This document shows, piece by piece, positions 1 to 29,540 of a DNA stretch of 64,000 nucleotides. The stretch's first letter is position 1. Each line of letters starts with the position of its first letter. The DNA lies in the NCBI GenBank assembly GCA_951406725.2, contig OX597828.1:34100001-34164000 (forward strand). Reading direction: 5' to 3'. The notes under the pieces are model-generated. The model was not told where the DNA came from. It was given only the letters and a program-made list of their open reading frames with translations, and did not search any database. Source of the stretch: Octopus vulgaris (lineage: Eukaryota). The position numbers were made by a program, and so were the translations under genes.

Positions 1-19
1 ATACTAACTAAAGTGTTTT

Positions 20-295
20 ACATAACTTATACTTGACAGATATTTGTCCTCATCTTATTTGTTGTTAAGACACCGTTTCGGCTGATATACCCTCCAGCCT
101 TCATCAGGTGTCTTGGGGAAATTTCGAACCTGGGTTCTCATTCCTAAGGTTATTTTTTTCGATGTTATTATTATTATTATTATTCAGGTCACTGCCTGGA
201 ATCTTGGGGTTAGTAGCCTGCACTCTTAACCACTATGCCTGCCTGTCAAATGTAAATAATGTACATAATTTCTCATCTCTTAAATATAGAACCGT
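20..295 (-). mobile_element. Penelope-like terminal repeat (tRNA-like head, AAT tract, hammerhead motif, tail) with inverted tail fragment
   Basis: Homologous to copies at 3540-3975 and 12495-13101; CTGATGA...GAAA core on the minus strand at 67-114. Confidence 0.75.
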
Positions 296-458
296 AAAGT
301 GTTTTAGTTGTGACAGGACAATGATAGAAATTCTAACACTGTTGGTAGAATCAAATAATATTATCTTAGTAATTAATTAATAGTTAAACAGTATTAACTT
401 TATTGGTAACATATTAATATACAAATGAGAAACTTAGTATACTTTCATTTCAACTTAA

Positions 459-1549: not shown

Positions 1550-1665
1550 GTTATGCTCTGATCATAATGTATCTTCATTAGACTAGATGTCTCCCATTCC
1601 ATTTGGTGTACAGCTCTTATAGCTTCAACTAATTTCTTCCGAGAACCGATCTGCTGAATACCAAT
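1550..1665 (-). CDS. ASZ1: ASZ1 exon 9, end of SAM (IGIQQIGSRKKLVEAIRAVHQMEWETSSLMKIHYDQSIT); gene continues beyond window start
   Basis: Manual translation; SAM C-terminal GI..G.RKKL motif; AACAG/GTAAGG boundaries. Confidence 0.9.
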
Positions 1666-2359
1666 CTGTTGAAATAAATGAATCAATAAAACCAAAGTTT
1701 ATTTCAGGGCTTGGTAATGTTAGAAAGAGGAAATGGAGCCAGTCTATCATATGAAATTTTTCATTTTTTACCTGTTTTCCATACATGCACAGTTCAGAAC
1801 ACTGGTTCCCAACCATTTTTCACTTATAGACTCATTTGATTCCTGTTTTATTTGGGTGGACCCTCAAAACTATTCTATGTTTTAAAACATCCTATTAGAT
1901 TTTTATGTGGAGGCACAGGCTAGGGTGTCGGACTCATGATTGTATGGTTGTGGTTTCGATTCCTGGACCGGGCAACGCGGTTGTGTTCTTGAGCAAAACA
2001 CTTAATTTCACATTGCTCCAGTCTGACCAGCTGGCCAAAATGAGTAATCCTGTGATGGACCAGCGTCCGGTCCAGGTGGAGAGTATATCCGCCACTGAAT
2101 CCGGGAAACTGGCCCTTATGAGCCTGGCATGGCTCAAGAAGGAAACACTTATTATTTTAATTATATTTTTATAATTAAACATTAGAAATTGTGTAAAAAA
2201 ATTGTTAAGCAATTTATTGCAAATAAATTTCAACAGCAAACTCTTATATGGTCCCTAAAGGGCAATTTGGACCCCACTTGAGAACCACTGGTTTAGATGA
2301 ATATGTTATTAGGGTAATACAGTTCTATATTTAAGAGATGAGGAATTACGTACATTATT

Positions 2360-2527
2360 AGGCGTAGGAGTGGCAGTGTGGAAAGTAGCTTGCTTCCCAA
2401 CCACATGGTTCCAGGTTCAGTCCCACTGCGTGGCACCTTGGGCAAGTGTCTTCTACTATAGCCTCGGGCCGACCAAAGCCTTGTGAATGGATTTGGTAGA
2501 CGGAAACTGAAAGAAGCCCATCGTATG

Positions 2528-2564
<37 letters not shown>

Positions 2565-2762
2565 ATATGTTTGTCCCCTTAACATTGCTTGACAACCGAT
2601 GCTGGTGTGTTTACGTCCCCGTAACTTAACGGTTCGGCAAAAGAGACCCATAGAATAAGTACTAGGCTTACAAAGAATAAGTATTGGGGTCGATTTGCTC
2701 AACTAAAGGCGGTGCTCCAGCATGGCCACAGTCACATGACTGAAACAAGTAAAAGAGTAAAA
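2360..2762 (+). mobile_element. Abundant tRNA-derived SINE with internal (TA/TG)n; other copies at 9770-10155, 15555-15950, 33340-33665, 35390-35768, 46975-47303, 53590-54230, 59445-60130
   Basis: A-box and B-box head, conserved body, TGACTGAAACAAGTAAAAGAG tail repeated throughout the window. Confidence 0.8.
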
Positions 2763-3358
2763 ACTGAATAACATCAGTTTAATGTCCACTTTTCCCAGTT
2801 TGCATGGGTCAGATGTATATCTGAGACAGATTTTCTACAGTCAGGTAACCTTCCTGTCAACATCTCTCACCTGTTTCAAAGTAATGGCAATCGTTTATAA
2901 CTATAATGCCATGTGAGGACAAAAACACACACACATGATGGGCTTCTTTCAGTTTCTACCAAATTGACTCATAAGGCTTTGGTCAGCTCAGGTCTATAGT
3001 AAAAAAAAACACTTCCCCAAGGTGCCTTGAAGTGGGAGTGAACTTGGAACCATGTGGTTGGGAAGCAAACTTCTTACCACAAAACCATGCCTGTGCCTTC
3101 TGCTTATGCCACGTAAAAAGCCCTGTTGACTCTGCAGGGTGGTTGGTGTTAGGAAGGGCATCCAGCTGTAAAAGCCATAGCAAAACAGACAGACAGAAGT
3201 CTGGTGCAGGCTCCTACCTGGCCAGCTCCAGTCAAACCATCCAACCCATGCCAGCATGGAAGGCAGACATTAAATGATGATGATGATGAAGATGATAGAA
3301 GAAAGGGTAGTGAAAGGATGAGAAGCGCTAAGACTCAAGGCCTTCTTTTGAAATTTAC

Positions 3359-3488
3359 CTTTTCCAGATCGTCTTCAGTAAGCGTTAATAACTGATTGAA
3401 GGTAATATTGTGTTCTTTGAAGTTTTCTATTGTTGACTGTAAATGAAGTCCGTAGAGAAACAGTTCTAACTGACTGTATGAACTTGAT
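3359..3488 (-). CDS. ASZ1: ASZ1 exon 8, SAM domain (SSSYSQLELFLYGLHLQSTIENFKEHNITFNQLLTLTEDDLEK)
   Basis: Manual translation; SAM motif resembling ASZ1 'DLEVFLHGLGL...ITLRHLLTM'; TTTCAG/GTAAAT. Confidence 0.92.
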
Positions 3489-3539
3489 CTGAAACAGAAA
3501 GAGAAACTCATCAGATTGGGTGAAAATGTGAAATGTAAT

Positions 3540-3802
3540 ACAGTTCTATATTCAAGAGATTATTTACATTTGATGGATATTTGTCTTCAACTTGTTTGTT
3601 GTTAACACAACCGTTTCGGCTAATATACCCTCCAGCCTTCATCAGGTGTCTTGGGGAAATTTCGAACCTGGGTTCTCATTCCTAAGGTATTTTTCGATAT
3701 AATTATTATTAACCACTATGCCATATGCCCATGGACATATGGCATAATGATTAAGAGCGCGGGCTACTAACCCCAAGATTCTGAGTTCAATTCCAGGCAG
3801 TG

Positions 3803-3833
<31 letters not shown>

Positions 3834-3975
3834 CATCGAGAAAAAACCTAAGGAATAAGAATACACGTTCGAAATTTCCCCAAGACACCCGATGAAGGTT
3901 GGAGGGTATATTAGCTGAAATGTGTTAACAATAAACAAGATGAGGACAAATATCCATCAAATGTAAATAATGTAA
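3540..3975. mobile_element. Head-to-head inverted pair of Penelope-like terminal repeats with two hammerhead motifs
   Basis: Arms 3560-3698 and about 3835-3970 are reverse complements; symmetry centre near 3730. Confidence 0.78.
3604..3652 (-). ncRNA. Minimal type I hammerhead ribozyme (best-preserved copy)
   Basis: GACAC-CUGAUGA-A-GGCUG(loop)UAGCC-GAAA-CGG-UU-GUGUU: helix I, core, helix II, minimal helix III, GUU triplet. Confidence 0.7.
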
Positions 3976-5245
3976 TAAGAGAATATGGAAACAAATACAT
4001 AAATAAAAAAAAAGATACTTCATTGATTCCATGGAAAATACAAATACAAAATAGAGCACCGGTTGTTGTTGTTCTTGTATAGCTCTGAAGGCAGTCCTGA
4101 TTGAATCGTGAGCACTGTCAGGACATCCACTTTTCCATGGGTCAGGTGCCATTTGATGAGGCAGGTTTTCTATGGCCAGATGACCTTTCTGTAGCAAAGC
4201 CTCACCTGTTTCCAAGCAAGGTAATATTCTTCCATACCTAAACATTTTCTTCACAAAGAGTCTGGAAATACTTGCTTGTATGACTATGATGATGATAATA
4301 ATCATTTGTAACCATCATGTGATGTCTAAACAGAGGTACAAACATACAAACACACACACACGGGCTTCTTTCAGTTTCCATGTACCAAATCCACTCACAG
4401 GGGTACTGCTGACCCACGACAACAGTAGAGGACACTTGCCCAGTGTCACGATCTAGACCAAATCCAAGACCATGTTTAGGAACCCAGCTTCATAACCACA
4501 CGACTATATCTGTGCAAAGATTTTATAAACAAAAGCTCTCCAGCCATGACACTCCTATCTTATTTCCAGCAACAGTGTTTACCTGATCATATTATCTATT
4601 ATGCCTTTCATTTATCAAAAGTGTGGCTTGAGTTTCAGTTCACGACTAAAGCCATCTGGATTTAGACATGTTCTCATAACGAGGCATGACAGCTGCAAGG
4701 TTAAGCTAATCTGCTCTGGCAACATACCAGCAGTTCAAACTTCACTTTAACAGAAATCAGAGAGAGTAAATTTAAAGAAGTTCCTACAGCGGTGCCACCC
4801 CACCACCACTGCTTAACGTCCATTTTCCATGCTGGTATGGGCTGGACAGTTTGACTGAGGTCTGGAGAACCAGAGGCTGCACCAAGCTCCAATCTGGTCT
4901 AGCAGAGTTTCTACAGCTGGATGCCCTTCCTAACACCGATTACCCCGAGAGTGTAGCAGGTGCTTTTTACGTTCCACTGGCACAGGAGCCAGTAAGGTGG
5001 GCCTGGCAACGATCACGTTCAGATGGTGCAAAAAAACCATCCCAGTTATCCTATCAAGAAAAGACACATATAAAAGTGCAATACAAATGTGTTCTTGTGT
5101 GTGTGGGGAGGGTTCTAAATACGTACACACTTTATAGCCACGTGCCTGTAAGGAAATGCACCTAACTACTAACTCGTTTTGATGTCCCAATGAAAACACA
5201 AGCCCAACATGACTTTGTTGTTGAGCATTTAGCAGTAGAAAATGT

Positions 5246-5531
5246 GGAAGCACTCCGTTGGTTATGACGACGAGGGTTCCGGTTGATCCAATCAACGGAA
5301 CAGCCTGCTCGTGAAATTAAATACAGGTACAACAGAAACAGGAAGTAAGAGTGAGAGAAAGTTGTGGTGAAAGAGTACAGCAGGGATCACCACCATCCCC
5401 TGCCAGAGCCTCGTGGAGCTTTTAGGTGTTTCCGCTCAATAAACACTCACAACGCCCGGTCTGGGAATCGAAACCACGATCCTACGACCGCGAGTCCGCT
5501 GCCCTAACCACTGGGCCATTGCGCCTCCACT
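5246..5531 (-). mobile_element. tRNA-derived SINE with 12-bp target site duplication; longer copy at 21803-22187
   Basis: TGGCCCAGTGG A-box and GGTTTCGATTCC B-box; AGTAGAAAATGT repeated at 5234-5245 and 5532-5543. Confidence 0.82.
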
Positions 5532-6570
5532 AGTAGAAAATGTAAGCAATGCTTCTCATGTTTCAGGACCATCATGGCACACAGTACCAGAATCGGGTTT
5601 TAAAAGCCATGTCAAAGTTGAAGAAAGCAAGTGAGGACTCTACATACCAGAGCGATCTCCAGTTGACTTCTATACAGACCCACTGAAGTATTTGAACTTG
5701 AGATAGGAAGTTAATGAAACGCCTATTCATTAGACTGTCAATGTCGTGTGTGGTTGCTCACTTTATCACAAAACTGAAGCCGAATGTCCTTCGAAACAAA
5801 CCATACCTTGTTAAAACAGGACACATTAGATAGTGTAGTCTTGGATACAGAATACTTGGAATAAGAAATGGTTGTTGCTGAAACACTTTCAATGACAGAT
5901 CTGCTTCAATCATAAATCTCCTCAATTAGAACAGAACTGAGGTCAAGCCACAACAGATACAGTACCCACACTCATCATCATTTAGCGTCCGCTTTCCATT
6001 CTGGCATGGGTTGGACAGTGCAACAGGGGTCTGGGAAGCCAGAAGGCTGCACTAGGCCCAGTCTGATCTGGCAATGTTTCTACGGCTGGATGCCCTTCCT
6101 AATGCCAACCACTCCATGAGTGTAATGGGTGCTTTTTACGTGCCAGACGAGGCTGGCAAACGGCCACGATCGGATGGTGCTTTTTACGTGCCTCCGGTAC
6201 GGAGGCCAGGTGAGGCTGGCAACGGCCACAATCAGATGGTGCTTTTTACGTGCCACCGGCACTATTTAATGTAAATGAAATAACCCCTTAAGGCACTTCT
6301 ATTATATGGAACATTTGTTTTTGTATCAGAAGAAAAGTCAACTGGACAAAACCCTCAACTGTCTCCACTTCCTCCAGTGATAAATCCCTTAGCCTGCAGC
6401 AGCTATTTATAGTTAAGTGGATTTGGCCATTTGGACGTGAAGTGTTTGGACTTTGGAGACTGTTGCATAGACTGCAATAAGATATCTACAACCAACATCT
6501 TGACCAGTAGTCCAATAGTTTTTCTACAATAGCAGGTTAAAAAAAAAAAAATCTGGTCCTATGAACTTAC

Positions 6571-6668
6571 CTGTTTGCTATACTTGTAATTTTATTGTCG
6601 TTCGTCTTCGCTGCAAGAGGTGTTTTTTCCCCTGTGTCTTTGTAGCTGTCATCAATGTAAGCAGCAAT
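6571..6668 (-). CDS. ASZ1: ASZ1 exon 7 linker (IAAYIDDSYKDTGEKTPLAAKTNDNKITSIANR)
   Basis: Poly-T CAG acceptor, GTAAGT donor, phase 0-2 links exons 6 and 8. Confidence 0.85.
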
Positions 6669-7295
6669 CTGATAGAAAAAAAAAAACCCAAAAAACATAT
6701 TACATCTTATAATATTGTAAGATGACAAGCTTGGCAATATCAGTAACATGCCAGACAAAAGGCTTGTATATATGTGTGTGTATATATATATCACTGTTTG
6801 CCATGATAGATTGGTAGCCACTACACATATTTTTCTCTCTCCTTGTTTCTTTCTCTGTTCCTTTCTGTGGAAGAGCATAGGCTCGAAATGTAAAAGACTT
6901 TTTCACTTCCTGAGCATTATACTAATACATCTGTTTGTTTTCTACACCACCAGTCTTCGTCTTTTGCTTTTTTTCATGAATTCTCCCTATATATATATAT
7001 ATAAAAACTGTACTGGGAGAAGAAGAAGAAACGAATCGAATCGATATATGTTTGTGTCTGTGTTTGTCCCCCACCCCAACATCGCTTGACAACCGATGCT
7101 GGTGTGTTTAAGGCCCTGTAACTTAGCAGTTCAGCAAAAGAGACTGATAGAATAAGTACTAGGCTTACAAAGAATAAACCCTGGGGTCGATTTGCTCGAC
7201 TAAAGGCAGTGCTCCATCATGGCTGCAGTCAAATGACTGAAACAAGTAAAAGAGTAATTCTTATACAAAATTACAACAGAAGTTATAATTAATTA

Positions 7296-7504
7296 ACTGT
7301 ATTTTCCAGTATACAAGTTGAATTTTTCAGACTAAAATTTAAAACCAAAAGAAAGGTAGGTCAACTTAGACATGAAGACAACTTTCAAGGACCAAAAATT
7401 CCATATGAAAATCAGAAGAATCTGGAAAGATAGTGACAATTCTTGAATGTTTACACTACACGTTTACATAATATACTTCAACTTGTAAGCTGGAAAATAT
7501 GGTA
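7296..7504. mobile_element. pogo/Tigger-like MITE (similar elements at 14900-15054, 25390-26093, 35866-36031)
   Basis: TATTTTCCAG..TACAAGTTGA inverted termini flanked by TA. Confidence 0.55.
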
Positions 7505-7746
7505 AATATGGAGATTTTGGAACCAGGAAAGTTATCTTAGACAGGTTTTGATATGAAAAAGGATAATTAAGAGATATGAAACCTCATCATCATTATTGTA
7601 TAAAGTCCGCTTGCCATGCTAGCATGGGCTGGACGATTTGACTGAGGTCTGGCGAACCAGATGGCTGCACCAGGCTCCAATCTGATCTGGCAGAGTTTCT
7701 ATAATTGATAAGTAAGGAAGGAAAAAAAAAAAAGGGGATGATTTAC

Positions 7747-7881
7747 CTCCTCAAATGATCGTAAATAAGCAATATCTGCAGCAGAATGTCTTCTGTGGTC
7801 TCTTAATTTTGTATCGGCACCAGTTTTCATAAGTTCTACAACAAGAGACATATGGCCACTGTTTGCAGCATGGAATAATGC
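7747..7881 (-). CDS. ASZ1: ASZ1 exon 6 (ALFHAANSGHMSLVVELMKTGADTKLRDHRRHSAADIAYLRSFEE)
   Basis: Ankyrin repeat; poly-T CAG acceptor, GTAAAT donor; 135 nt, phase 0-0. Confidence 0.93.
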
Positions 7882-8589
7882 CTGGAAATAAAAAAAAAAA
7901 AAAAAAAAAAAATCCAAAATAATAATTAAACCCCTGAGATGTCATACATGTTATTCATCATCGTTGTCGTTTAACATCCGCTTTCCATGCTGGCATGGAT
8001 TGGATGGTTTGACTGAGAGCTGACAAGCCAGAAGGCTGTACCAGGCTCCAATCTGATCTGGCAAGATTTCTACAGCTTGATGCCCATCCTAATACCAACC
8101 ACTCCAAGAATGTAGTGGGTGCTTTTTACATGCCACCAGTACGATGGCCAGTCAGACAGTACTGGCATTCACCATGCTCAAATGGTGCTTTTTACGTGCC
8201 ACTGGCACGGGAACTTGTTGGGTGGCACTGGCAATGACCACACTCGAATGGTGCTTTTTTAATGTTAATACAATTTTTTCAAGGCCAGTAATTTTGAGGG
8301 GACGGAACAAATCAATTATATCAACCCCAGTATTTGACTGGTATTTTAATTTTATCAATCCTGAAAGGATGAAAGCAAAGTTGTCCTAGGGAAAAGCAAA
8401 GGGGCCAATACAGCTGGGCACAAGTGACGTTACAACTGAGTGGACTGGAGCAAAGAGAAATAAAGAGTCTTACTCAAGAACACAACACACAGCCCAGTCC
8501 AGGAATCCAACCCACTAACTCCTCATGATTTTGAGTGTGACACTCTAACCACCAAGCCATGCGCCTTCACTTAAATTGCATACACTGGT

Positions 8590-8770
8590 TTCTTCTTCTT
8601 CTTGTCTTGAGACAGCATTCACCCGGGGTGGGTTGAGCTGGCTTCATTCATCCTCAATGCTGCGTCTCTCACAAACGCCGACCAGACCTGGCAATTTGTG
8701 GCTAACGACCGCGTGATTTCCAACCACTCCTTATTCCAGCGGTGAACACCATAGATATGGATGCCTAGGT
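8590..8770 (-). mobile_element. RTE-type LINE 3' end fragment
   Basis: W...W......LA.N..VWSAFVRDA...ASST.PG* followed by an (AAG)n tail. Confidence 0.55.
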
Positions 8771-9091
8771 TTAAACCATACACTGGTTTAAAAGTACTTG
8801 GAGTTGTTCTTGACATATACACAGTAAATACAAGACAGGATTCAAACTAAGCACCTACATTTCTAAACTAAGAACAGGTGTGCTTCAAATTACATTGCGA
8901 ATTGGTTGCAAGACATGTGATTTCACTCAAAAAATGACATAACATGGAAAAACATTTTAAAAACTTTATTAGCTTATATCTGCTTCTATAAATTGTTTGT
9001 ACAAATTTTCACAAGTCTTTATTTGATTTTCTACATTAGTATAGTTTTTAGGTGTTTTTTTATTTTTTTTAATTTTAATTTTATGCTTTAA

Positions 9092-9310
9092 CCCTTTAGT
9101 GTTCAGATTATTCTATCAAACATAATGCTTATTGATTCCCATTGATTTGAATTAATCATGCATTATCTCATATCTTCATGATCTTGATGGTGTAATTACT
9201 TAATGTAGAATAACATTGTAGGGTAGGTGTGAGAGCCTAGATCTGGTCAGTTTGAACATAAAACAGATTAGCTCTTTTGGCCGGATATGGCCGGTTTAAA
9301 TACTAAAGGG
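9092..9310 (-). mobile_element. piggyBac-type MITE, inverted relative to 459-682
   Basis: TTAA-CCCTTTAG...CTAAAGGG-TTAA. Confidence 0.8.
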
Positions 9311-9316
9311 TTAAAG

Positions 9317-9638
9317 CAGGGTTCTCAACCATCTTTTATCCATGGACCCCTTTGATTACCATTTCATTCTGATGGACCTCCATAACTATTTGATGTTTAA
9401 AACCTAGTTTTACAGAAACTTTTTTCAAAGTTCCTATTTTGTTTTTCAGACATTTAACTTGTGTAGGTTGAACAATGTAAAATGTTCAAGAAAGAAATCT
9501 GTTTCTTACAATATGTACCAATACAAATATCTAAAGCAAAATTTTTTTCAGTGGGCCCTTAAAATACTATTGTGGATCCCCATTTTATCATTTTGTTGGA
9601 CTCCCTAAAAATCTGATATGGGCCCCGGTTGAGAACCA
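9317..9638. mobile_element. hAT-like MITE
   Basis: CAGGGGTTCTCAACC...GGTTGAGAACC termini; relatives at about 1800-2290 and 45289-45480. Confidence 0.6.
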
Positions 9639-10186
9639 GTTTTCAAGTCAAAAAAGATGTAACTCCAAGTTGAGGTATGTCTGTATAACAATATTTTTAT
9701 CCCCTAGATTACACACACACAAGAAATAAAACAACAACTCAAGAAAATATAAAAACAAAAATTGATCACAGGTGCACACGTGGCTGTACAGTAAGAAACT
9801 TGCTTCCCAACCACCTGGTTCCCAGTTCAACTCCGCTGCGTAATACCTTGGACAAATGTCTTCTACTACGACCTTTAGTCAACCAAAGCCTGTGAGCGAA
9901 AAATGGTACGTGGAAACTGAAAGAATCCTGTCATATATATGTGTGTGTGTGTGTTTGTCCCTTACAACTGCTTGACAACCAGTGTTGGTTTGTTTTCATC
10001 CCTGTAACTCAGCAATTCAACAAGAAACTAAGAGAATAAGTACTAGGCTTTAATAAAAAAAAAATTACTGGGGTCAATTCATTTGACTAAAATTCTTCAA
10101 GGTGGTGCCCCAGCATGGCCACAGTCTGATGACTGAAACAAGTAGAAGATAAAAGATAGTTTGGAAATGGTAGTACTCATACTTAC

Positions 10187-10298
10187 AGACCATCCCTGAC
10201 TGTCTGTTACATTAGGGTCAGCATAAAAATCCAACAGCTTTATTAGAACTGAGAGGTGGCCCCTCTTGGCACTATACATCAATGGTGTTGTGTGATAT
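10187..10298 (-). CDS. ASZ1: ASZ1 exon 5 (YHTTPLMYSAKRGHLSVLIKLLDFYADPNVTDSQGWS)
   Basis: Ankyrin repeat; TGCAG/GTAAGT boundaries; phase 2-0. Confidence 0.93.
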
Positions 10299-10865
10299 CT
10301 GCAGAAGAAATTGTTACAACATAATCTGACAGTTAAACTGATACAGTAAACAAGAATCAAAACAAAAGTAAACAAGAGCACTCAGAGAGTGCAAACCTCT
10401 GCCAAGGCAACACCAATATTCTCTCAACAATTAGCCAGGGATGATTTTTAAAATGAGACCATCTGTTCGTGTCCGTTGCCAGCCTCGCCTGGCCCCCGTG
10501 CCGTTGGCACGTAAAACCACCATCCGCTCGTGTCCGTTGCCAGCCTCGCCTGGCCCCCGTGCCGGTAGCATGTAAAAGCACCATCCGTTCGTGTCCATTG
10601 CCAGCTCTGTCTGGCACCTGTGCAGGTGGCACATAAAAAGCACCCACTACACTCACGGAGTGGTTGGCGTTAGGAAGGGCATCCAGCCGTAGAAACACTG
10701 CCAAATCTGACTGGGCCTGATGCAGCCTTCCGGCTTCACAGACCCCAGTTAAACCGTCCAACCCATGCTAGCATGGAAAACGGACGCTAAATGATGATAA
10801 TGATGATGATGAATATCTGAAATAAATTCAGCTGCTCTCACAAACGAGAATACTAAAAATGAACC

Positions 10866-11105
10866 CATCATCATCATCATTGTTTGACCGTGGTCGAGAC
10901 AATGGAATTTACCATGCTATGCCAGACTTCACGGTCCATCATAGCATTACGGAGGTCCTGTTGCTGGATGCCTGTATCCCTGGAGATTACATCAGGGTAG
11001 GAGAGTGTGTGCCCTCTGGTATTGCGAGTAGATGGCTTCCAGAGGAGAAGAGTAGAAATTGCCTCGTTTTCAGCTCTACAACAATGTCCAGCAAACTGGA
11101 CTCTC
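10866..11105 (-). mobile_element. RTE/RTE-X LINE 3' end
   Basis: RRVQFAGHC.R...LLLW.P...Y.D...DTG....L..AM.DR.VW followed by a (TGA)n tail. Confidence 0.72.
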
Positions 11106-12494
11106 CTACCTTTTTTTTTTTTCTTTAATAAAAAAATGAACCCAACCACTCTCAAAAATTAAATAAAAAAACAGGAAAATAATCCAGAATCCTTGTTCGG
11201 TACCTGATCGGATCCAATTGTAGTCATGGAATGTGAAGGTGGCCATAGAAAACTTAGTAACAGTAATAAATAGTTTATCCTTATATAATAGAAGCCAAAG
11301 TTAACAAATTCACCATCCAAAATAGTTTCAAAGGCGGAGGTAATAAGTTCTACTCAGGAATTCTTAAATGAATAGCATGAGACCTTTTGGTTTTCTCTTC
11401 TCTTAAATTCCGGCCTTCCTTTAGTATTCCTGTTCTTTTAGATTGATGTATAGATGCATGTATATATATAAGTATACTGTAAAGTGTTTACATGTAAGTA
11501 TAATATATAATATATATATTATAAAAATATGTTAATGTTATTTGATTTGTGAATGGTTTTGCTGCCACTTGTTTATGTAGTTTGATTTCTTTATCCATCA
11601 GTTTCTACTAGGATAGAGACGCAAGTAAAATTAATAACAGAGAAACGAAAAGAAAACTTTTTTAAACAGCCTTAAAGGGAGATAACTGAGAAAGACTTGA
11701 AAGTCAACATAAGATCGTAATCATGTAAATATAACAAATAATCCAGAATCCTTGTCCAGTACCGGATCAAACCCAAAATCCAATCCATTCATGCCAAACA
11801 TTCCTAAGAGTTCCATCCGAATCCATCCAGCAGTTCTTGAGATATTTTGTTCACAGACAAACCAACTAACAAATGAACACGACTGAAAACAATACCACTG
11901 CCTTTAAGGCGGAGGTAACAAGAATCAAAACAAAGATCAAAGAAAAGAGAGAGAAGCATTTCGGTTGTTTTTTTTGGTTAAATATATATTTTATATTTAA
12001 CATATATATTAATATACAGCTAAATATATTTTTTTAGAAAAAATTATTTCATAATTGTATAATTTTCATAAAGTGTAAAATGACGTTTTGTCGTTGCTAA
12101 GCCCTAGCTCCTTGCTTTGCTTTGGGTCCTCAAATTCTAATGAAATTGTAGGAGAGCCATTGTGGCAGTGTGTCTTGTGTATCTAAACCTGGTGGAGTCT
12201 ATCCCTCTCCTTCTCAACACAAACATTCACCTTTCCATGCTTACATGGGTCAAATGGAATTTGCTTAGACAGATTTTCTAATAAGGCTGGATGATCTTCC
12301 TTTTGGTAACCTTCATCTAGACTTATTTTCGGCAGAAGACTGGAATCAAACAATTTTGCTCGCATGATAGTGATCCTCATTTACGAGACAAGGTGGGGTG
12401 GGGGGAGGCTACAGTTGAAGACACCTGTCCAAAGTACCAAGCAGTGGCTTCTTAATCACACAGCCACACCTGTACCTATAAACAAATTATATAG

Positions 12495-13101
12495 TACAGT
12501 TCTATATTTAAGAGATGAGGAATTATGTACATTTTTTACATTTGACAGATATTTGTCCTCATCTTGTTTGTTGTTAACACAACGTTTTGACTGATATACC
12601 CTCCAGCATTCATCAGGTGTCTTGGGGAAATTTCAAACCTGGGTTCTCATTCCTAAGGTATTTTTCAATATTATTATTATTATCACCATCATCATCATTA
12701 TTATTATTATTCAGGTCACTGCCTGGAATTGAACTAGGAACTCTTAACCACTATGCCATATACTGGTGAGCAATTATGGAGTGAATTTTAGGGCTTATAA
12801 ATCTAATAGTTTCTTACCCTTCCTTAATACCGGTTCCAATATGCTACTCATATCTGCACTCGGTCTGTTTAAGAGGTTGTTGTGTCCTAACATATGTGCT
12901 TCTTTTAGTTTTTGTATTTTCCAGTGGTGTTCTCTGTCTATTATTTTAACTTCATCCCACATCAAAAAATACCTCAGGAACAAGAACTCAGGTTCGAAAT
13001 TTCCGCAAGACACCTGATGAAGGCTGGATGGTATATCAGCCGAAACGCTGTATTAACAACAAACAAGATGAGGACAAATATCCGTCAATTGTAAATAATG
13101 T
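12495..13101 (-). mobile_element. 5'-truncated Penelope-like element: GIY-YIG endonuclease C-terminal remnant (12795-12960), terminal repeat and inverted partial repeat
   Basis: WDEVKIIDREHHWK..KLKEA...LNR peptide; hammerhead motifs at 12576-12623 (-) and 13007-13054 (+). Confidence 0.8.
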
Positions 13102-13231
13102 AAACAAATTACAAGTTATATGTCCCAGGGTGGGGATGAACCATCAGACGTTCGGTTAACAGCCGAAAGCATTGACCAATATATAACATACGTGTTAAAA
13201 CAAAACAAAATAAAAAAATGATACTGTTTAC

Positions 13232-13346
13232 CTGTCCATAGAATCAACTTTAGCTCCATGCTCCAATAACAGAGTGACACACTTCATTATAGAGTTCTCA
13301 TCATCCTTATCTGAAGTACATGCAGCCATCAAAGGGAAAAATCTAT
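13232..13346 (-). CDS. ASZ1: ASZ1 exon 4 (DRFFPLMAACTSDKDDENSIMKCVTLLLEHGAKVDSMDR); alternative in-frame acceptor gives start 13352
   Basis: Manual translation (absent from ORF track); resembles ASZ1 'LITACS...EEQILKCVELLL'; phase 1-2. Confidence 0.9.
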
Positions 13347-14746
13347 CTGTCACTGGAAACAATACAAAATTTAATGAATGTGAGTAAAAAAAAAAAGTAA
13401 AGATAAAATTCTGTATGTGTCCTGGTTTTTAGAAATGGTACTGAGGTACACTTTATCCTTGTGTACCATAAGAGTCAGCAGCTAAAAGGGAATTGGGAAA
13501 GGAATTTGGGCCCCCAAAAAGTTGCTGACAATAAAGACTCATCCAACGCAAGCCACGGAAAAGAGAGTGCAATAAAACAACAATGACGATGAAGATGATG
13601 ATGATGATGATGATGAAAATCTAAAGTATATTTCATCCATCCAAGCTAATCTATTTCTGAAAATAAAATTTATGATCAACTAATGATAATCATCATCATC
13701 ATCTAATGTCTGCCTTCCATGCTGGTATGGGCTGGACGGTTTGGTAGGAGCCTGCACCAGATTACTGTGTCTGCTCTGGCAGGACTTTTAGGGCTGGATG
13801 CCCTTCCTAACACCAACCACCCAGCAGAGTGGACTGAGTGCTTTTTACATAGCACAAGCACAGGTGAGGTCAGTTTTGGCAGGGTTTTTACAGCTGGATG
13901 CCTTTCCAAAATGCCCACCACTTTACAGGGTGGACTGGATGCTTTTTATGTGGCAGGGTCACAAAGTAACTTGTAAGACAAAGATCCTTTGAGAGGGGTG
14001 GGGGCATTGGAAGAGGTGATCTTGTGCCAGATGATGAAAGGTTAGAGTGTGGCAGAGAGACAGAAACAGGTGTTTTGTTGTAGAGGAGGTACATGGTTAT
14101 CCAGAGAGAGAGAGAGATATCAGGAATGAAGAGAGAAACAGGTGTGCTGCTGTGAAGAAGATGCATGGTTACCTAGCCTAAGAGAAGAACAGGAGAGAGA
14201 GAGTGGGAGACAGCAAGAGATGGTGGCAAAGTGCAGGACATACTCACAAGAGACAGGGATCTGAATATAAATTAATCCACTTAAATACTATGCACATTGC
14301 TTTTCAAGCAGTGCTGTGGCTTGTATGCCTCATAGATCCTGAGAGCTAAAACCAGTGAAGCGCAAGCTCATTGGTAGAGCCTACCATACTGGACTGCTCA
14401 TAGAGGCCAGACCAGTAAGGACTGTCTCTTTCAAGATATGAAAATGCGGTTGCAAAGGGCCAACACCTCTACTCAGAAAAACATCGATGACAATTCAAAA
14501 CAAACAACACCTGAGAGAGGAAGACCTTCCTTCAGGGAAACATAGGAGCTGAAAAAGTAGGGATCCAGCTGGAGAGAAGCAGAAATGACAGGCCAGTGCC
14601 TAGAATCATCATCATCATCGTTTAATGTCCGCTTTCCATGCTAGAATGGGTTGGACGATTTTGACTGAGGGCTGGCGAACCAGATGGCCAAAGGTCAATA
14701 GAGAGTGAAGATCTTAAGAAAGCAAATAGATTACATATACACTCAC

Positions 14747-14869
14747 CATGGTTATAATCAGGAGAAGCATTCTGTTCCAAGAGATAATGGACAATTTCAG
14801 GATGACCAGCGCTAGAAGCATACAACAATGGCGTCCAGTTTCCTTTGAGCTTAACATTAACATCAGTTC
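14747..14869 (-). CDS. ASZ1: ASZ1 exon 3 (GTDVNVKLKGNWTPLLYASSAGHPEIVHYLLEQNASPDYNH)
   Basis: Ankyrin consensus WTPLxYA..GH; CAG/GTGAGT boundaries; phase 1-1. Confidence 0.93.
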
Positions 14870-16126
14870 CTGTAGTAATAAGAAAGAAAAACATTGAATT
14901 ACCATATTTTAACATGTATAAGGAAACCCCCTAATTTTAGGGGCTTAAATTTGGAAAAAATGTTTCGTAAGGTATTACAATACTATCCACGTATAAGAAA
15001 CTCCCATATCATTTTTTGACAAGAAAGGGTTCCTCATACACGTTAAAATATGGTAATTCTCTGAGTTAGATTATAAGCATAATATGACAATGGTGGTACT
15101 GATGATGAAGAATCTATATTGAGAACATAGGTGCAGGGGCAAAGGCAGGTTTTTGGATGATGGCACATCATCATCATTTAACATCCATTGTCCTCACCAG
15201 CATAATCAGAACTGACAAGCTGAAAGGCTGTACCAGGCTCCAGTCTGCTTTGGTGTGGTTTCTATGGCTGGATGTCCTTCCTAATGCCAACCACTGCAAG
15301 AGTGTAATGGGTGTTTTTATGTCCCACTGGCACAGGTACCATTTGTGTGACACTGGTATCTGCCACGACTAAAGAGTTAATGTCTCTCCTGTCAACCTTT
15401 CCTCAAAGAACTTTCCAAAATGGATTTTCCACCTCTGTGTAGCAAATTCACTATTTTTCTTTATTGATTTTACTAAATAATACAAACCTTGCTGACGCAG
15501 ACCAAAACCAGAGTCTTGAGTCTGTTTCATTATATATATATACATATACCCTCTCTTTTATCTTTTACTTCTTTCAGCCCATAGATTATGGCCAAGCTGG
15601 GGCACTGCCTTCGAGAATTTTTAGTTGAATGTAATGTATCAACACCACTACTTTTTTTTTTAAAGTCTGGTGCTTACTCTATCAGTCATTTTGCTGAACT
15701 ACTAAGTTACAGGGAGGTAAACACACCAACACCTGTTGCCAAACAGGACATACACATATAAATACACATAGAGATGCATACATATATACGACAGGCTTCT
15801 TTCAGTTTCTGTCAACCAAATCTACTCAAAAGGCTTTGGTTGTCCTAAGGCTATAGCCGAAGACACTTGCCCAAGGTGTCATGCAGTGGGACTGAACCTG
15901 GAACCATGTGATTGGGAAGCAAGGTTCTTACCACACAGCCACACCTGCACCCAAAATGGTTTTGGTTCAGCCCCAAGCAATTTAGAGTTTCACAGGCTTC
16001 TTACAGAAACCCAGCTCTTTGGGATCAGTTAGCATAAAGAGTGTAAAAAGACAGACAGGATGGATGATCTGAGAGTAAGGAATAATAATAATAAAAGAGA
16101 TTGCAGAAGAGAATGTCTGCTCTTAC

Positions 16127-16379
16127 CATTTTCAATGAAATACTGTACAGTAGTGAGGTCACCGTTCAAAATGGCTATTCGAAGGTCATCAATTGGAAAT
16201 TCTACTTTAGCCATCAGTTTACTGGAAAGATCAACAACAGGTACTCGCTGAGGGATTGGATTTGCTGAATCATTCCAAGACTCTCCATTTTGCCATGTTT
16301 CACTCGTGTCAAATTGTTTTCCTTGATTCGTTTCGTTTGTGTTCTCTTCAAATGATTTTGGTTCTGACAGATCCTTGCC
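16127..16379 (-). CDS. ASZ1: ASZ1 exon 2 (GKDLSEP...DDLRIAILNGDLTTVQYFIEN), start of ankyrin repeats
   Basis: TTTTCCCCCAG acceptor, GTAAGA donor, open frame with ankyrin-like helix. Confidence 0.88.
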
Positions 16380-19300
16380 CTGGGGGAAAAGTAACAAGCA
16401 CGAAGAAATACATATCTGCATATCATATCTCTGCAATATATGCATATGTAGTGGTTATATATAGTCGGTACCACGTGTTGATGTAGCTGCATGTATATTA
16501 TTACAAGAGTTCATATAGAGACGAAGAATAAATTCAAGACTTATATATTTACTACATAAAACTATATTTTATTTACTGATCGGCCGATGCCAGACCCCCC
16601 TGGCACCTGTGCAGGTGGCACGTAAAAAGCACCCACTACATTCGCGGAGTGGTTGGCGTTAGGAAGGGCATCCAGCTGTAGAAACTCTGCCAGATCAGAC
16701 TGGAGCCTGGTGCAGCCCTTGGCTTCCCAAACCCCGGTCGAACCGTCCAACCCTAGCGCGGAAAACGGACGTTAAATGATGATGATGATGATACATAGAA
16801 TCAAAATTGTAGAATCTAGTTGAATGAAGTAATCTATGCAAGAAAGTTCAGAGATAGGAAATATAGAAATAACAGCTAAGTGGTGGTTTTCAGTCATGTG
16901 GCATAGAGAAATAGACGGACATAGCAATGACGTGAATGGCTCTGAGTCTAATCGACTAAGAAGCGAAGAGTTGGGTTAGCAATCTGTTTTTATTACTGGA
17001 ACGCTAGACATCCTAGAAACTTTTCAGAGAAATGCTAAAGAATAAAATGTCTTGAATGACACAACAATGCCCTATAATACAAACAATGGACTATAAGAAC
17101 TGTTGTAATTTAATGCTCCATAGTCTGATATGATATTTCAGAATAAAAATTCCTTCTTCAGATAACCCTAGGAATTGATGGAGTCGCTGCTATAATCAGT
17201 TTTCCAACGGCTTTTCTTTTTCCTTTTTTTCCGGAAGCGAAGAACTTCTTTCAGTTTCCGTCTACCAAATCCAGTCACAAGGCTTTGGTCGGCCAGAGTC
17301 TATAGTAGAAGACACTTATCCAAGATGCCATGCAGTGGAACTGAACCCAGAACCATGTGGTTCTCACCACACATACACAAACATATATATGTGCATGCAT
17401 ATACACACACACACACACACCACGGCTGTGTGCTCGTGACTGAGTTAAGCTCACTAACTTATTACGAGCCACCTACAGGCTTCCAACCAGTCAGGCATGC
17501 ACATTTTAGGTCCAATAAAGCTTGCATAATATTCGGCAGACCCTCTCCATCCTGTAGACATGATCCCTGGGGCAAATTATTTGGTGTCAGTAAAAGTTCC
17601 AGGCTCCGCTGTAGATGAAAATCCTTTAAATGATTAAAGTGAACACCAACGTTTTTTTTTTTTTTTAAATAAGTCATCTCCAAGTGAGGAAAGACTTCCA
17701 CCCGTCCCCACCCCCATTTTCTCCCAAATTTGTTTATTTTTGTAATTTTTTTTTTTTTGCCAAAAATCCCGGTTTTCGGGTACGGAGATTCCGGAAAATT
17801 GCCAAAAATCGGCATTGTGATCCCCCCACCTAACTTCTTCAATTTTGACTTTTTTCCCCCAACACTAACCCTAAAACCCTAACCGTAACCTTATGAAATT
17901 TTTGTCCGAATCATGATATCCGTATTTTTCCGCATATTTAAAAAAAAAATAAAATTTCACAAACATTTTTGGAAATTTTTTTCTGAATCATAATCTCCGT
18001 ATTTTTCCGCATATTTCGAAAAAAAAAATAATGTGAAAAAAGTTAAAAATGAAGGAAATAGTGGTGGGGGTGGTAATTTAGAAATGTTAATTTTTGCCAA
18101 TTTTTTTGCAGATTCGTATTCCAAGTAGCCGAAAAGGAAGGGGTTGTGTCGAAAAAAAAAATTTTTTAAGGGTGGTTGGGGGGAGGGGGGAGTTGGCGGA
18201 CGTCATACCCCAAGAGACATGCTTTAAAAAATGCTAAGCAGTGTCTTGCTTCCAATAATTAATCTTACTGTGCTTCAGACACCAACGAGCATACACGTGG
18301 TGTTATTAAATTGAAAGATTTGGAAGGAACAAATTCTATGAACGAACAATTGTGTCTTCGTTCGAAATTTCTCTCTTGACATTCACAATGGTCGACGATA
18401 TACACATCATGTGTTTTGTTACTTAAATAAAGTAAATTCATAATTTCTCAGAGGAGCTAGCTTCATTCAGAAGAAAAAAAAAGAAAAAAACGACTCTTGT
18501 TCGTTGTTTATAATTTAAGATAAGCCGAAAAAGCACAACACCAGATAATATATAAATTAGTAAAAACCTTCTTGCAATAATGCGTTAAACAGATAACATT
18601 CGACTGCATAATGTAATGCTAGAAAGAGTAGTCGAATCGCCCTCAAATCACATCAAACCAACAAGAGCCTCAATATGCGGTTGCTTTACCTGCAAAGAAT
18701 TTGTGGTCAAAATCTTTCTAAATCATACCTGCGCAGTTCTTTTAATTAACAAAATTAACCTAACTTTTAAACATTTTATAAGCAAGAGCGAAACATTGAA
18801 ATGAATTTTAATATTACACGTGTAGAATAAGCTGTGATTTAAACGTGGATTATCAAGCCAAATTTATGAAGAATTCAAGGGTTTAGTGGGAAGAAAATCA
18901 CTTTTTTCAAATTTCAATTTCAACTTGCCACTATAATCCTTTCAATAAATTACAAATGAATTTAAAATGGGGGGCGGGGAGGTTAAGTGCTTTGATCTTG
19001 TTACCTTATAACTATTTCAGAAATTTTATATCTCGACATGCTGTTGTTTAGCTGCAGAATAAATAAACCTGGCATTAGACCTTTAATCAAAGACATTCCA
19101 GCAGTGACCATTCTATCTGTATAGGGGTATGCAGGACCATTCCCTGAAACTTTAAGACTTGCATGGTTTAAGCTTGGAGATAAGCCTATGGTGTGGTGGC
19201 AGGAACAACCAGGTATCCGTCGAAAAGGACGACATCGTCAAACGACAACGAAGAAAAACGGCGAAGTCTCCTGCTTTTGTTTCGATAACGACGATGATAC

Positions 19301-19894
19301 TATATATATATTTCTTCACTACCCACAAGGGGCTAAACACAGAGGGGACAGACAAACCGATTAAGTCGATTACATCGACCCCAGTGCGTAACTGGTACTT
19401 AATTTATCGACCCCGAAAGGATGAAAGGCAAAGTCGACCTCGGCGGAATTTGAACCCAGAAATTCGCCGACTATATATAAGACAGTCTGTGTGATTGATT
19501 TAAAAGTGAAATGCCTGCTATTTCTAACAACTCAAGTGGTCATGTAAAGATTCTTATTACTGGACATGGAAGCTAAAGTGAAAGTACAAAGCCACAAGTA
19601 TTCATGTGAAGACACGCACGTTGTTAGGCTAAGGAGCGAATTACACTTAGCGCCAAAAGAAATGCTCAATTTATATGTAGTTGTGTTGTTTTATTCATTC
19701 GCAGCTGATGGAATTCTCACCGTCGTAGTACAGACTTGGCTTTCTGTGCGCGAAGATTAAAGATAAATATATAAAGAAAAAAAAAAAGAAACCTTAAGAA
19801 GACAGACTATGGGATTTGAATGAGAAAGGGTTAAGAAGTCACTAAAAGGGTTAAACATCAAATGGTAAAAGAAAAGAAATGAAGGATGTGTTAC

Positions 19895-19975
19895 ATGTTG
19901 ATAATAACTGAGCCCGTAATCATCGGAATCGTCTGAGAATTCGTCTTCAAAGCCGGCAGGTAATACATTAGCCAT
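19895..19975 (-). CDS. ASZ1: ASZ1/GASZ exon 1 (MANVLPAGFEDEFSDDSDDYGLSYYQH)
   Basis: ATG at 19975, acidic PAG..ESD-type N-terminus typical of ASZ1, GTAACA donor, phase 0 fits exon 2. Confidence 0.8.
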
Positions 19976-24877: not shown

Positions 24878-26223
24878 GTAAGTTTAACTAAAAAATTTTT
24901 TCCAGTTTTTATTATAACTTTCAGTGTCTGAGAAAACAATCTCAAAGACACTCTCAAGAAAACAATATGATCTCAAAGACACTCTTGAGCTTGTCTTACA
25001 TAATTCATACAATATAATAATAATAAAAAAATGTCTAGTGTTTTTATTGTTGTTTAACCCCAAGTTAGTCCTGATTGAACCAGACCTCTGATCAGAGGTA
25101 TGTCACCTTTGACTAATCCAGCTTTTTTTCTGTATATCTAGTACTTATATATATAGGCTTCTTTCAGTTTCCATCTGCCTAATCCACTTACAAGGCCTTA
25201 GTTGACTTCAGCCTACAGTAGAAGACACATGCCTGAGGTTCCATGCTGTGGGACTGAACCTGAAACCATGTGATTGGGGAGCAAACTTCTTACCACACAG
25301 CCACATCTGTGCCTGTTGTACACATATTCGTTTCAAATTTTGGCACAAAGCCAGCAATTTTGGGTGGGGTGGGGGTGGGGTCAGTTGATTACTGCATATA
25401 CTCAGTTATAAATCGCACTTTTTTCACCTAAAGTTGCGGGTGTGGATTATAAGTGCATCTTATAAAAAAATAGGTAGAAGCCATGTCTGAAGTTCCAACA
25501 CTTGGAATGACCGAAAAATCCCGAATTGCTAATTCCAAAGCCAAGAAATACACGGAAGAGGATTTTTTATATATTTCTTTATTTCTGTTATTTGGTGAAA
25601 GTGATGATGAATTCTTCTGATTTTTGTCACAATGCTTCATACGCTTCCTTACAATTTAAAATAGTTTACTGTATATTTTTTTTCCAATCGTAGCACATAT
25701 GACTGCATGCTTTTGTGTGTCAGTTGCTGCAGAAGTGTCCTAATAAAGAAAGTCATCAATCAAAAAGTAAAGAGAAAGTATCGAACCGATTGAAGCTCAA
25801 TACGATAAACAAGTCAACTAGCATTATCAAGGATAAGATTTTACATTATAAACAGCGGTTTCTAAAATGCATGGACTTAATGGGGTAACTGTTGTAAGTC
25901 ATCTGCAGCTTACTGAAAGCTCAGTTACCGAACAACAACTATGTCGGCGTGATTCCTAATCAAACTTTGCACTAAAACATCAAAAAAGTCACTGCGATTT
26001 GTAGTCAGTTCACTGATAAAATTCCCGATTTGAACCTTGTAAGTTGGATGCGTCTTATAGGCGAGGGCGTTTTGTAGTTGAGTATATACGGTACGTTAAC
26101 CCCAGTGCTCAACAGGTACATATATGATGAAAAGAACTGACTCTTACAAGCTTGTTATCATAGTAGTAGAACATGGCTCTTGATCTTCCTACTTTTGAAA
26201 CTAATTTCCTTCCATTTTGACAG

Positions 26224-26296
26224 GACGAAGTCGCTGGGTAATTTATAACAAGAAATTCAATGTTGATTATGATGGGAGCATGATACCAGCTGCTTG
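26224..26296 (+). CDS. NDUFA12: NDUFA12 exon 3 (RSRWVIYNKKFNVDYDGSMIPAAW)
   Basis: Signature R.RWV.Y...D.DGS.IP..W; GACAG/GTATGT. Confidence 0.95.
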
Positions 26297-26554
26297 GTAT
26301 GTATATATAGATATATACTTCTTTTATCTTTTACTTGTTTCAATCATTGAATTGCAGACATACTAGTCTTGAAGGATTTTAGTTAAGCAAATTGACCCCC
26401 AAGTACTTTTTTCTTTGTTTGTTTTTAAAATCTGGTACTTTTATCATTTGGTACTCTGCCAAACCACTAAGTCAAGTGGTGTGTAAACAAACAGTGGTTG
26501 TGGACAAATACACATACACACACATATATGCATATGTACGTGTGTGTATGAGTG

Positions 26555-26605
<51 letters not shown>

Positions 26606-27873: not shown

Positions 27874-27904
<31 letters not shown>

Positions 27905-28580
27905 TCTGATTGAATCTTCCACATGTTAACATGTACCTTCTTGCGACAATGCAAACTTTTGTTTAATCAAGATATCCTTTGCCTGAAGAGCAACCTGCAG
28001 TGTACACCCCACTTGGATATTTACCACTTCCAAGGTTCCATTTACTATGAAACTTATGTAGCCTGGATCTTATCTACTCCATTCTTTAACTCTTGTATTC
28101 TTATTTGCACACCTAACAACCCTGATCACCTACCGCGAAATATAAAAAGAACTTTTTTTTCAGTTTAGTAAAAAATCCACGACCTTCCATCTCAATAAAC
28201 CAATATTGTCCCAGAAAGTTGTTTTTTGTATTTATTATGGATTGTTTGAAGCTAACTTTCTTCCTACACCTTGATCCTTGGACCTTATATTTGTCTACAT
28301 CTATATGTATGTGTAGACTCTTTCTGACATCATTTGATAATTGTAAATGAGTGTCTGTCATACAAGCAGTGTTGTTTGATTCCAATCTTCCATGAAAACA
28401 AGTGAGGGTTGGTGACAGGAAAGGCATCTGGACCTGTGCAAACATGGAAAAATGGGTGCTATGGGATGGATGTAGATATGTTGAAGAGCATAGGCTCGAA
28501 ACCTAAAAGACTTTCTCACTTCCCGAGCATTAAACTAATACATCTGTTTATGTATATGTACATACTTGCATCTATACATA

Positions 28581-28650
<70 letters not shown>

Positions 28651-29484: not shown

Positions 29485-29534
29485 TTTCTGCCTTTTTATA
29501 GTTTCTTTGCTTTGTTTAGACCTTACTAACTAAT

Positions 29535-29540
29535 AATAAA
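29535..29540 (+). terminator. Candidate polyadenylation signal AATAAA for NDUFA12
   Basis: First AATAAA about 50 nt after the stop codon; others follow. Confidence 0.35.

What the first reader, a model, noticed from the sequence alone, without database searches (positions are those of the whole stretch)
3604..3926. Five copies define an intact minimal type I hammerhead consensus, present on both strands of ASZ1 introns
Copies at 67-114 (-), 3604-3652 (-), 3882-3926 (+), 12576-12623 (-) and 13007-13054 (+) give the consensus GACAC CUGAUGA A GGCUG-GAGGGUAUAU-CAGCC GAAA CG UU GUGUU. It has helix I GACAC/GUGUU, a 5-bp helix II and a palindromic ACGU in place of helix III, the form known to need dimerisation. 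Four copies each carry different core lesions (lost UH, U4C, G12A, U16.1C). The 3604-3652 copy keeps the core, is sense to the ASZ1 pre-mRNA and lies about 115 nt before the SAM exon acceptor.
Basis: partly seen in the sequence, partly recalled or inferred. Interest (0 to 1): 0.72.

Follow-up and report, generated by a model that had tools for sequence, protein, structure and literature searches.

The report
Penelope hammerhead repeat with tRNA-like promoter
The ribozyme-like motifs in this octopus gene are worn pieces of a very common Penelope-type jumping gene and are predicted to be silent passengers rather than regulators of the gene; the unusual part is that this jumping gene carries a tRNA-like sequence that likely acts as its promoter.

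Summary
The five motifs are real and give a minimal type I hammerhead consensus, but they belong to three insertions of one Penelope/Poseidon-type retroelement (RT plus C-terminal GIY-YIG; an estimated 25,000-30,000 copies, about 7% diverged). Each insertion has a head-to-head arm, a one-sided tail and a target-site duplication. Such hammerheads are known (Cervera and de la Pena 2014). The 3604-3652 copy keeps the core but has an extra G that breaks the ACGU palindrome. In ASZ1 pre-mRNA it is predicted to sit inside a -241 kcal/mol hairpin with the antisense arm, and the intron is spliced in 4 of 4 contig sets laid. The genome holds 4,140 exact matches to the core with the palindrome intact. 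No covariation was found among copies. A role in ASZ1 control is unlikely. The less ordinary feature is a tRNA-Arg-like A/B-box head inside the pLTR. Copy number drops 5-fold just upstream of it, 60 of 92 copies start within 15 nt of the A box, and the 2.7-kb sense strand has no T4 run. That suggests Pol III-type initiation, which is untested. This scan noted the same element before on other DNA.

The parts
3532..3977 (.). One head-to-head insertion of a Penelope-like element end (two pLTR arms), with a 9-nt direct repeat AATGTAATA at 3532-3540 and 3969-3977 as likely target-site duplication, overlapping the element ends
   Evidence: arms share derived bases
3539..3558 (-). One-sided PLE tail (second 3' end, ...TATAGAACTGTA), on the left arm only
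   Evidence: tail signature described in PMC8557442 and PMC11167929
3604..3650 (-). Minimal type I hammerhead, core intact, helix I 5 bp, helix II 5-6 bp with G-U, helix III ACGGU (extra G); predicted cut between 3609 and 3608; sense to ASZ1
3711..3730 (-). Remnant 5' end of the tRNA-like head on the left arm; fold-back pivot at 3731-3732
   Evidence: sequence
3733..3804 (+). tRNA-like head of the right arm: A box 3740-3750 (three changes from the family majority), B box 3783-3794
   Evidence: majority head 49/72 identical to a genomic tRNA-Arg-TCT, z 8.1
3806..3834 (+). (TAA)n microsatellite linker between head and hammerhead region
3884..3926 (+). Broken hammerhead of the right arm (U4C, loss of CG and UH region); antisense to ASZ1; its complement pairs with 3604-3650 in the pre-mRNA
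9..305 (.). Second insertion: minus arm 18-243 with head and hammerhead 67-112 (U16.1G), inverted tail-only arm 243-296, direct repeat TAAAGTGTTTT at 9-19 and 295-305
12495..13112 (.). Third insertion: minus arm with ORF end, partial head and hammerhead 12576-12621 (G12A, G10.1U); inverted plus arm 12959-13112 with hammerhead 13009-13054 (U16.1C)
12795..12957 (-). C-terminal end of the PLE ORF (GIY-YIG endonuclease end, ...WDEVKIIDREHHWK...), joining the hammerhead repeat to the autonomous element
3359..3488 (-). ASZ1 SAM-domain exon; intron 3489-6570 (GT-AG) holds the focal insertion
   Evidence: joint 3488/6571 in 4 of 4 runs
1550..19975 (-). Host gene ASZ1, coding exons from 19975 down to 1550 in the window; three more exons lie before window position 1, so 67-114 is also intronic

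Best explanation
The motifs are the pLTR hammerheads of an abundant Penelope/Poseidon-type retrotransposon, left in ASZ1 introns by three insertions, and the 3604-3652 copy is predicted to be a silent passenger locked in a long hairpin with its own antisense arm. Shown: element anatomy (ORF with RT and C-terminal GIY-YIG, stop, 37-nt spacer, tRNA-like head, (TAA)n, hammerhead, tail), inverted arms, copy number, decay without covariation. Inferred from PLE literature: in the active element the hammerhead worked as a weak dimer- or protein-assisted ribozyme, and RT started internally at the two tail sites. Inferred here (about 0.55): the tRNA-like A/B boxes set the RNA 5' end by Pol III initiation. 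RT running off that end, or snapping back at the short palindrome there, then gives the many SINE-sized copies.
For: Hammerhead repeat continuous with a PLE ORF: 569-aa open stretch in L084; pLTR-ORF-pLTR order in L062 and L079; inverted 5' arms in many of 30 RT-selected loci. RT is RVT_1. Homologues of about 820-850 aa, 3 of 120 listed with PF01541 GIY-YIG. Motifs C.YSIPC.C and Y.GET lie after the RT. 4,140 intact-core matches against 0 control; about 25,000-30,000 copies. Median divergence 6.9%; 2 compensatory against 36 helix-breaking cells in 61 copies; 13 of 29 double mutants pair against 12.2 expected; covariation score inside shuffles, 153/500. Hairpin of -240.9 kcal/mol, z -24; helix probabilities below 0.0001 in context. 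Intron spliced in 4 of 4 runs. Exact 19-mer counts: hammerhead 6,978, head 5,491, spacer 1,060, ORF 977, with similar match rates per 19-mer in long copies (0.27-0.47). 60 of 92 5' ends at -15..0 of the A box. No T4 run in 2,670 nt.
Against: Non-CpG core sites are slightly less changed than flanks (28/570 against 320/4373, P 0.036), though loop 2 and the helices (5.4-6.2%) are also below the flanks. Three hammerhead-bearing insertions in 64 kb is above the sampled genome rate (P about 0.01), but the window was chosen for this feature. The head is not called a tRNA by ARAGORN at 80-100% threshold or by Rfam. The 5' pile-up also coincides with a hairpin, and palindromes at pLTR 5' ends are already described (PMC3846280). 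The lack of T4 runs is not significant against synonymous-codon shuffles (P 0.086). Folding is an equilibrium prediction; no cleavage or RNA-end data were available.
Confidence: 0.88

Rival explanations
1. The 3604-3652 hammerhead has been co-opted to cut ASZ1 pre-mRNA before the SAM exon, as a homodimer or with the sense copy at 67-114 (both read ACGGU), and so tunes germline transposon defence.
For: It keeps all core bases and is the only site passing a generic minimal-hammerhead scan of the window with a hammerhead-like context. It is 3.6% diverged against a 6.9% median. It is sense to ASZ1. The left end of the insertion is also seen in a contig of organism B.
Against: Palindrome broken, with a G-G mismatch in any dimer. 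The antisense arm is transcribed first and forms a hairpin of about 190 bp. About a third of copies keep the core by chance (21 of 61). Spliced ASZ1 contigs in 4 of 4 runs. Published minimal hammerheads show no monomer activity and low dimer activity (PMC4209133) or need the PLE protein (PMC11167929).
Confidence: 0.03
2. The short copies start at the head only because RT stalls or snaps back at the hairpin CCATA-AT-TGCCC-AC-GGGCA-TATGG of an ordinary Pol II transcript, or because a Pol II start lies there. The tRNA-like head is a captured SINE or tRNA pseudogene with no promoter role.
For: Hairpin of -15.6 kcal/mol at this site, and 18 of 65 copies ending at -40..0 pivot on it. Palindromes at pLTR 5' ends and at inverted junctions are known (PMC3846280). 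The head no longer folds as a tRNA.
Against: 17 of 19 copies with no element in the flank also start at -14..0. A and B boxes are kept at tRNA spacing in the majority sequence. No T4 run on the sense strand (mononucleotide shuffle mean 4.8, P 0.007).
Confidence: 0.35
3. The short tRNA-head plus hammerhead unit is an independent SINE family that replicates from its own master copies using PLE enzymes in trans, and was secondarily built into the autonomous element.
For: Head-bearing copies outnumber ORF-end copies about 5 to 1; 77 of 92 head copies carry the PLE tail. The spacer upstream of the head looks like a worn inverted copy of the head start.
Against: Short and long copies share one majority sequence and I found no diagnostic subfamily positions, but I did not test this by phylogeny. 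Internal RT initiation near the RNA 5' end (PMC11167929) would yield such short copies from the element's own RNA.
Confidence: 0.25

Closest known systems
Minimal type I hammerheads (min-HHR) in pLTRs of metazoan Penelope-like elements (Cervera and de la Pena 2014, PMC4209133; parts 1-2 of 4 read)
   Same: Short helix I (5 bp), bulged base before G10.1-C11.1, palindromic 15.2-16.2 with no loop 3, thousands of dispersed copies, pairs on opposite strands 100-700 bp apart
   Different: Helix II is 5-6 bp rather than 7-8; octopus is not named in the parts read; no tRNA-like head described there
EN+ Penelope/Poseidon elements, e.g. PAc of Anolis (PMC11167929, parts 1-2 of 4 read) and Pen2a of Adineta (PMC3846280, passages)
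   Same: Single ORF with RT then GIY-YIG, pLTR-ORF-pLTR, inverted 5' pLTR, optional tail of about 30 nt, TSD of 9-11 bp, hammerhead near the ORF start, palindrome at the pLTR 5' end
   Different: pLTR begins with a tRNA-derived A/B-box head and a (TAA)n linker instead of the TATA/Inr-like motifs reported for Pen2a; most copies are pLTR-only
Schistosoma Sm-alpha / Sj-alpha SINE-like repeats (as reviewed in PMC6765202, passages)
   Same: Pol III-type promoter followed by a type I hammerhead in a short, abundant repeat
   Different: Those carry canonical hammerheads and occur in tandem; here the hammerhead is minimal, the unit is part of an autonomous PLE, and copies are head-to-head with PLE tails
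Non-LTR retrozymes as non-autonomous PLE derivatives (bioRxiv 10.64898/2026.07.22.740005, abstract only; PMC7229834, listing only)
   Same: Hammerhead-bearing non-coding units related to pLTRs
   Different: Retrozymes are tandem arrays; these copies are dispersed singles and inverted pairs with a tRNA-like head

Membership tests
EN+ Penelope-like element | Single ORF with RT followed by C-terminal GIY-YIG endonuclease | tested here: met
   RVT_1; C.YSIPC.C, Y.GET, ADH motifs after RT; homologues with PF01541. Pfam GIY-YIG did not hit the L084 copy itself
EN+ Penelope-like element | pLTRs in direct or inverted arrangement | tested here: met
   (L062, L079 direct; L065, L068, L070, L078, L084 inverted); window arms
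EN+ Penelope-like element | One-sided 30-40 nt tail and short TSD | tested here: met
   three window insertions
Penelope/Poseidon clade | RT phylogeny; no Zn-finger linker between RT and EN as in Neptune/Nematis | tested here: inconclusive
   No linker cysteine cluster seen by eye in L084; no tree with named references was built
Minimal type I hammerhead | Core CUGANGA, GAAA, UH with helices I and II and palindromic helix III (family consensus) | tested here: met
   11 of 61 unbiased copies meet all
Minimal type I hammerhead | Palindromic 15.1-16.1 in the 3604-3652 copy | tested here: not met
   ACGGU
Minimal type I hammerhead | Covariation in helices I and II | tested here: not met
   within one family of about 7% divergence, where little is expected; other families were barely sampled
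Minimal type I hammerhead | Self-cleavage as a dimer | not testable with these tools
   needs in vitro assay
Rfam hammerhead families | Score against Rfam covariance models | tested here: not met
   no hammerhead hit at E up to 5 (whole window) or 10
tRNA-derived SINE | tRNA-related head with A and B boxes | tested here: met
   best of 11 tRNA genes compared are Arg-TCT (49/72) and Arg-TCG (47/72); only some isotypes were available
tRNA-derived SINE | Defined 5' end at the head | tested here: met
   60 of 92 ends at -15..0; 5-fold step
tRNA-derived SINE | Pol III transcription | not testable with these tools
   only contigs were available; no T4 run is compatible
tRNA-derived SINE | Non-autonomous lineage separate from its helper | tested here: inconclusive
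   the same head is part of ORF-bearing copies; no phylogeny made

The most novel reading that the evidence does not exclude
An autonomous, protein-coding Penelope retrotransposon that uses a captured tRNA-Arg-derived internal Pol III promoter: its whole 2.7-kb sense strand avoids T4 terminators, and it sheds tens of thousands of SINE-sized hammerhead copies from its own 5' end, showing a SINE being born inside its helper.
Probability: 0.25. Interest if true: 0.72.

Novelty: new variant of a known kind. Interest (0 to 1): 0.4.

Why it matters
The hammerhead-in-ASZ1 story does not hold and needs no follow-up beyond one cheap assay. The element itself matters to transposon biologists. SINEs are usually paired with LINEs (recalled), and four literature searches here listed no paper whose title or abstract start describes a PLE with a tRNA-derived promoter in its pLTR. 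If Pol III initiation is confirmed, it would give a direct route for the birth of PLE-dependent SINEs and raise the question of how an uncapped transcript supplies RT. Thousands of head-to-head copies in introns would also be a large source of long double-stranded RNA in an animal group known for heavy A-to-I editing (recalled).

Tried and rejected
Rfam scans of the window, of 3500-4000 and of a near-consensus copy found no hammerhead or tRNA hit. ARAGORN found no tRNA in the window and no proper cloverleaf for the head. A pattern search for other hammerhead families (46 hits against 5 control) returned mostly mutated copies of this family; of the 30 loci inspected, only L350 looked like another family, so cross-family covariation stays untested. 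The apparent GAAACGGU variant among the first 30 loci was a selection artefact of the query. No RNA holder is on record for the stretch and only contigs could be laid, so RNA ends, strand and editing could not be read. No empty-site allele was seen in 4 further runs, but the unique flanks were mostly uncovered. Lunse et al. 2017 was not held; a search for octopus OR1/OR2 SINE papers gave 0 hits, so a link to those SINEs is recalled only. Supplements of PMC4209133 and PMC13282606 were not opened, and Repbase/Dfam libraries were not available; they may already list this family.

Full report
Observation. The five motifs are in the sequence where stated. A core pattern built on it has 2,056 plus 2,084 exact matches in G000 and none in the reversed control. 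Rfam hammerhead models do not hit; I infer this is because the motif has no helix III. The host gene is ASZ1: one exon is 91% identical to Octopus sinensis ASZ1, and that protein maps exon by exon on the minus strand from 19975 to beyond the window start. Spliced contigs fix the SAM exon at 3488-3359 and join it to 6571 in 4 of 4 runs from four studies (RNA status of these runs is a guess). The host is therefore likely an octopus.

Two corrections matter. The 3604-3652 copy has GAAA-CGG-UU, one G more than the consensus, so the self-complementary ACGU that lets two minimal hammerheads pair is broken. And the five motifs are arms of three insertions: 9-305, 3532-3977 and 12495-13112. Each has a head-to-head arm, a tail on one side and a short direct repeat at the ends. 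The two arms of the focal insertion share derived bases.

What it is. Upstream of the hammerhead at 12576 the window holds the end of a reading frame. Searching G000 with it and walking up gave a Penelope-type ORF: RT (RVT_1), then C.YSIPC.C, Y.GET and ADH motifs of the GIY-YIG domain. One copy has a 569-aa open stretch (L084), and full-length homologues are about 820-850 aa. Among 30 RT-selected loci the order is ORF, stop, 37-nt spacer, tRNA-like head, (TAA)n, hammerhead, tail; L062 and L079 show a direct pLTR before the ORF and many show an inverted 5' arm. This is the layout published for EN+ PLEs (PMC8557442 and PMC3846280, passages; PMC11167929, parts 1-2 of 4). Cervera and de la Pena (PMC4209133, parts 1-2 of 4) describe these minimal hammerheads in pLTRs, including opposite-strand pairs 100-700 bp apart, no monomer activity and low dimer activity. 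The Anolis PAc hammerhead cleaved only with the PLE protein and was not needed for insertion in vitro (PMC11167929). Copy number is about 25,000-30,000 from exact matches scaled by 10 and 14 of 61 unbiased copies, and 24,000 (9,000-52,000) from 6 copies in 70 evenly picked 10-kb stretches.

Selection on the copies. In 61 copies chosen through the ORF or by position, substitutions were 41/628 in the core, 35/576 in helix I, 40/594 in helix II, 37/601 in loop 2 and 384/4608 in flanks; 21 keep the core, 14 also the helices, 11 also ACGU. Without CpG sites the core is slightly below the flanks (P 0.036), a result against pure neutrality. Loop and helices are below the flanks too, and I suspect alignment noise in the flanks. 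Covariation is absent: 2 compensatory against 36 breaking cells; 13 of 29 double mutants at pair 10.2-11.2 pair, against 12.2 expected (three indel rows and the non-family rows were dropped). The covariation score on 33 core-selected copies lies inside the shuffles. This says the copies decay; it does not say the ancestral ribozyme was inactive.

The ASZ1 copy. On the sense strand the antisense of the 3733-3976 arm is made first, then the hammerhead arm. The 521-nt RNA folds into one hairpin of -240.9 kcal/mol (z -24). Helix II pairing probability falls from 0.40 in the isolated 57-mer to 0.012 with its own flanks and below 0.0001 with the partner arm; helix I from 0.25 to below 0.0001. With the broken palindrome and the spliced mRNA, a regulatory cut is unlikely (about 0.03). 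The one route left is a heterodimer with the 67-114 copy, which also reads ACGGU but is transcribed 3.5 kb later.

The unusual part. The pLTR starts with a 72-nt head carrying an A box and a B box at tRNA spacing. It is closest to genomic tRNA-Arg genes among 11 compared (49/72, z 8.1), but no longer scores as a tRNA. Exact 19-mer counts are 6,978 in the hammerhead, 5,491 in the head, 1,060 in the spacer 40 nt before the A box and 977 in the ORF 200 nt before it; per-19-mer match rates in long copies do not explain the step. I took 90 of the first 100 listed head matches on C1 (of 5,491), which gave 92 copies. Of these, 13 end inside the head, 60 at -15..0 of the A box, 5 at -16..-40 and 14 run further. 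Of the 65 ending at -40..0, 18 pivot on a local palindrome, 28 abut another inverted arm and 19 were scored as solo; 17 of those 19 start at -14..0 (at least two, L213 and L221, have other element sequence nearby). A majority sequence of 2,670 nt of the element's sense strand has no run of four T (mononucleotide shuffle mean 4.8, P 0.007; synonymous shuffle mean 2.0, P 0.086; no control family was run, and depth is low at the 5' end). The simplest joint reading is an RNA that starts just before the A box, with RT starting at the tail sites and running off or snapping back. Pol III initiation is inferred (about 0.55); a hairpin-driven stop or a Pol II start remains open, since pLTR 5' palindromes are known (PMC3846280).

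Novelty and verdict. The hammerhead is a new member of a known class and the ASZ1 location is incidental. The tRNA-headed pLTR is a variant I did not find in four searches (listings seen, a few papers read as stated). The nearest design is the schistosome Pol III plus hammerhead repeat (PMC6765202, passages). Unopened supplements and repeat libraries may already hold the family. I reached this reading before looking at earlier scan notes; eight notes then showed the same or similar elements on other DNA. One suggested whole-element Pol III transcription and prompted the T4 test. Interest 0.4.

Noticed in passing
window 43359-43791: Fragment of the same PLE: an ORF piece on the minus strand (43359-43543), then two post-hammerhead stubs facing tail-to-tail around a near-perfect (TG)n(TA)n(CAT)n palindrome, arms 99% complementary; no hammerhead left
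   Followed up: partly
window 37606-37820, 41229-41396, 43859-44101, 45701-45871, 52414-52653: Other fold-back repeats of 84-104 bp arms, often beside (TA)n; 41325-41345 has a CUGAUGA...GAAA match; possibly stubs of other PLE families
   Followed up: no
window 3539-3976 and 12495-13112: Inverted arms make long double-stranded RNA in introns of ASZ1, a germline piRNA-pathway gene (role recalled); candidate editing or small-RNA substrates
   Followed up: no
window 3837-3880 and equivalents: A second B-box-like string (GGTTCGAAAT) lies 20-30 nt before the hammerhead in every copy
   Followed up: no
L350:1490-1545: Different minimal-hammerhead candidate with a 6-bp helix I (AGTCAC/GTGACT), perhaps another family
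   Followed up: no
L236:138-2854: Cluster of seven tRNA-Cys-like genes within 3 kb, two with changed anticodons
   Followed up: no
window 1-64000: At least three other dispersed repeat families with 10-20 copies each (e.g. 1229-1406, 2354-2756, 19304-19461), likely octopus SINEs
   Followed up: no
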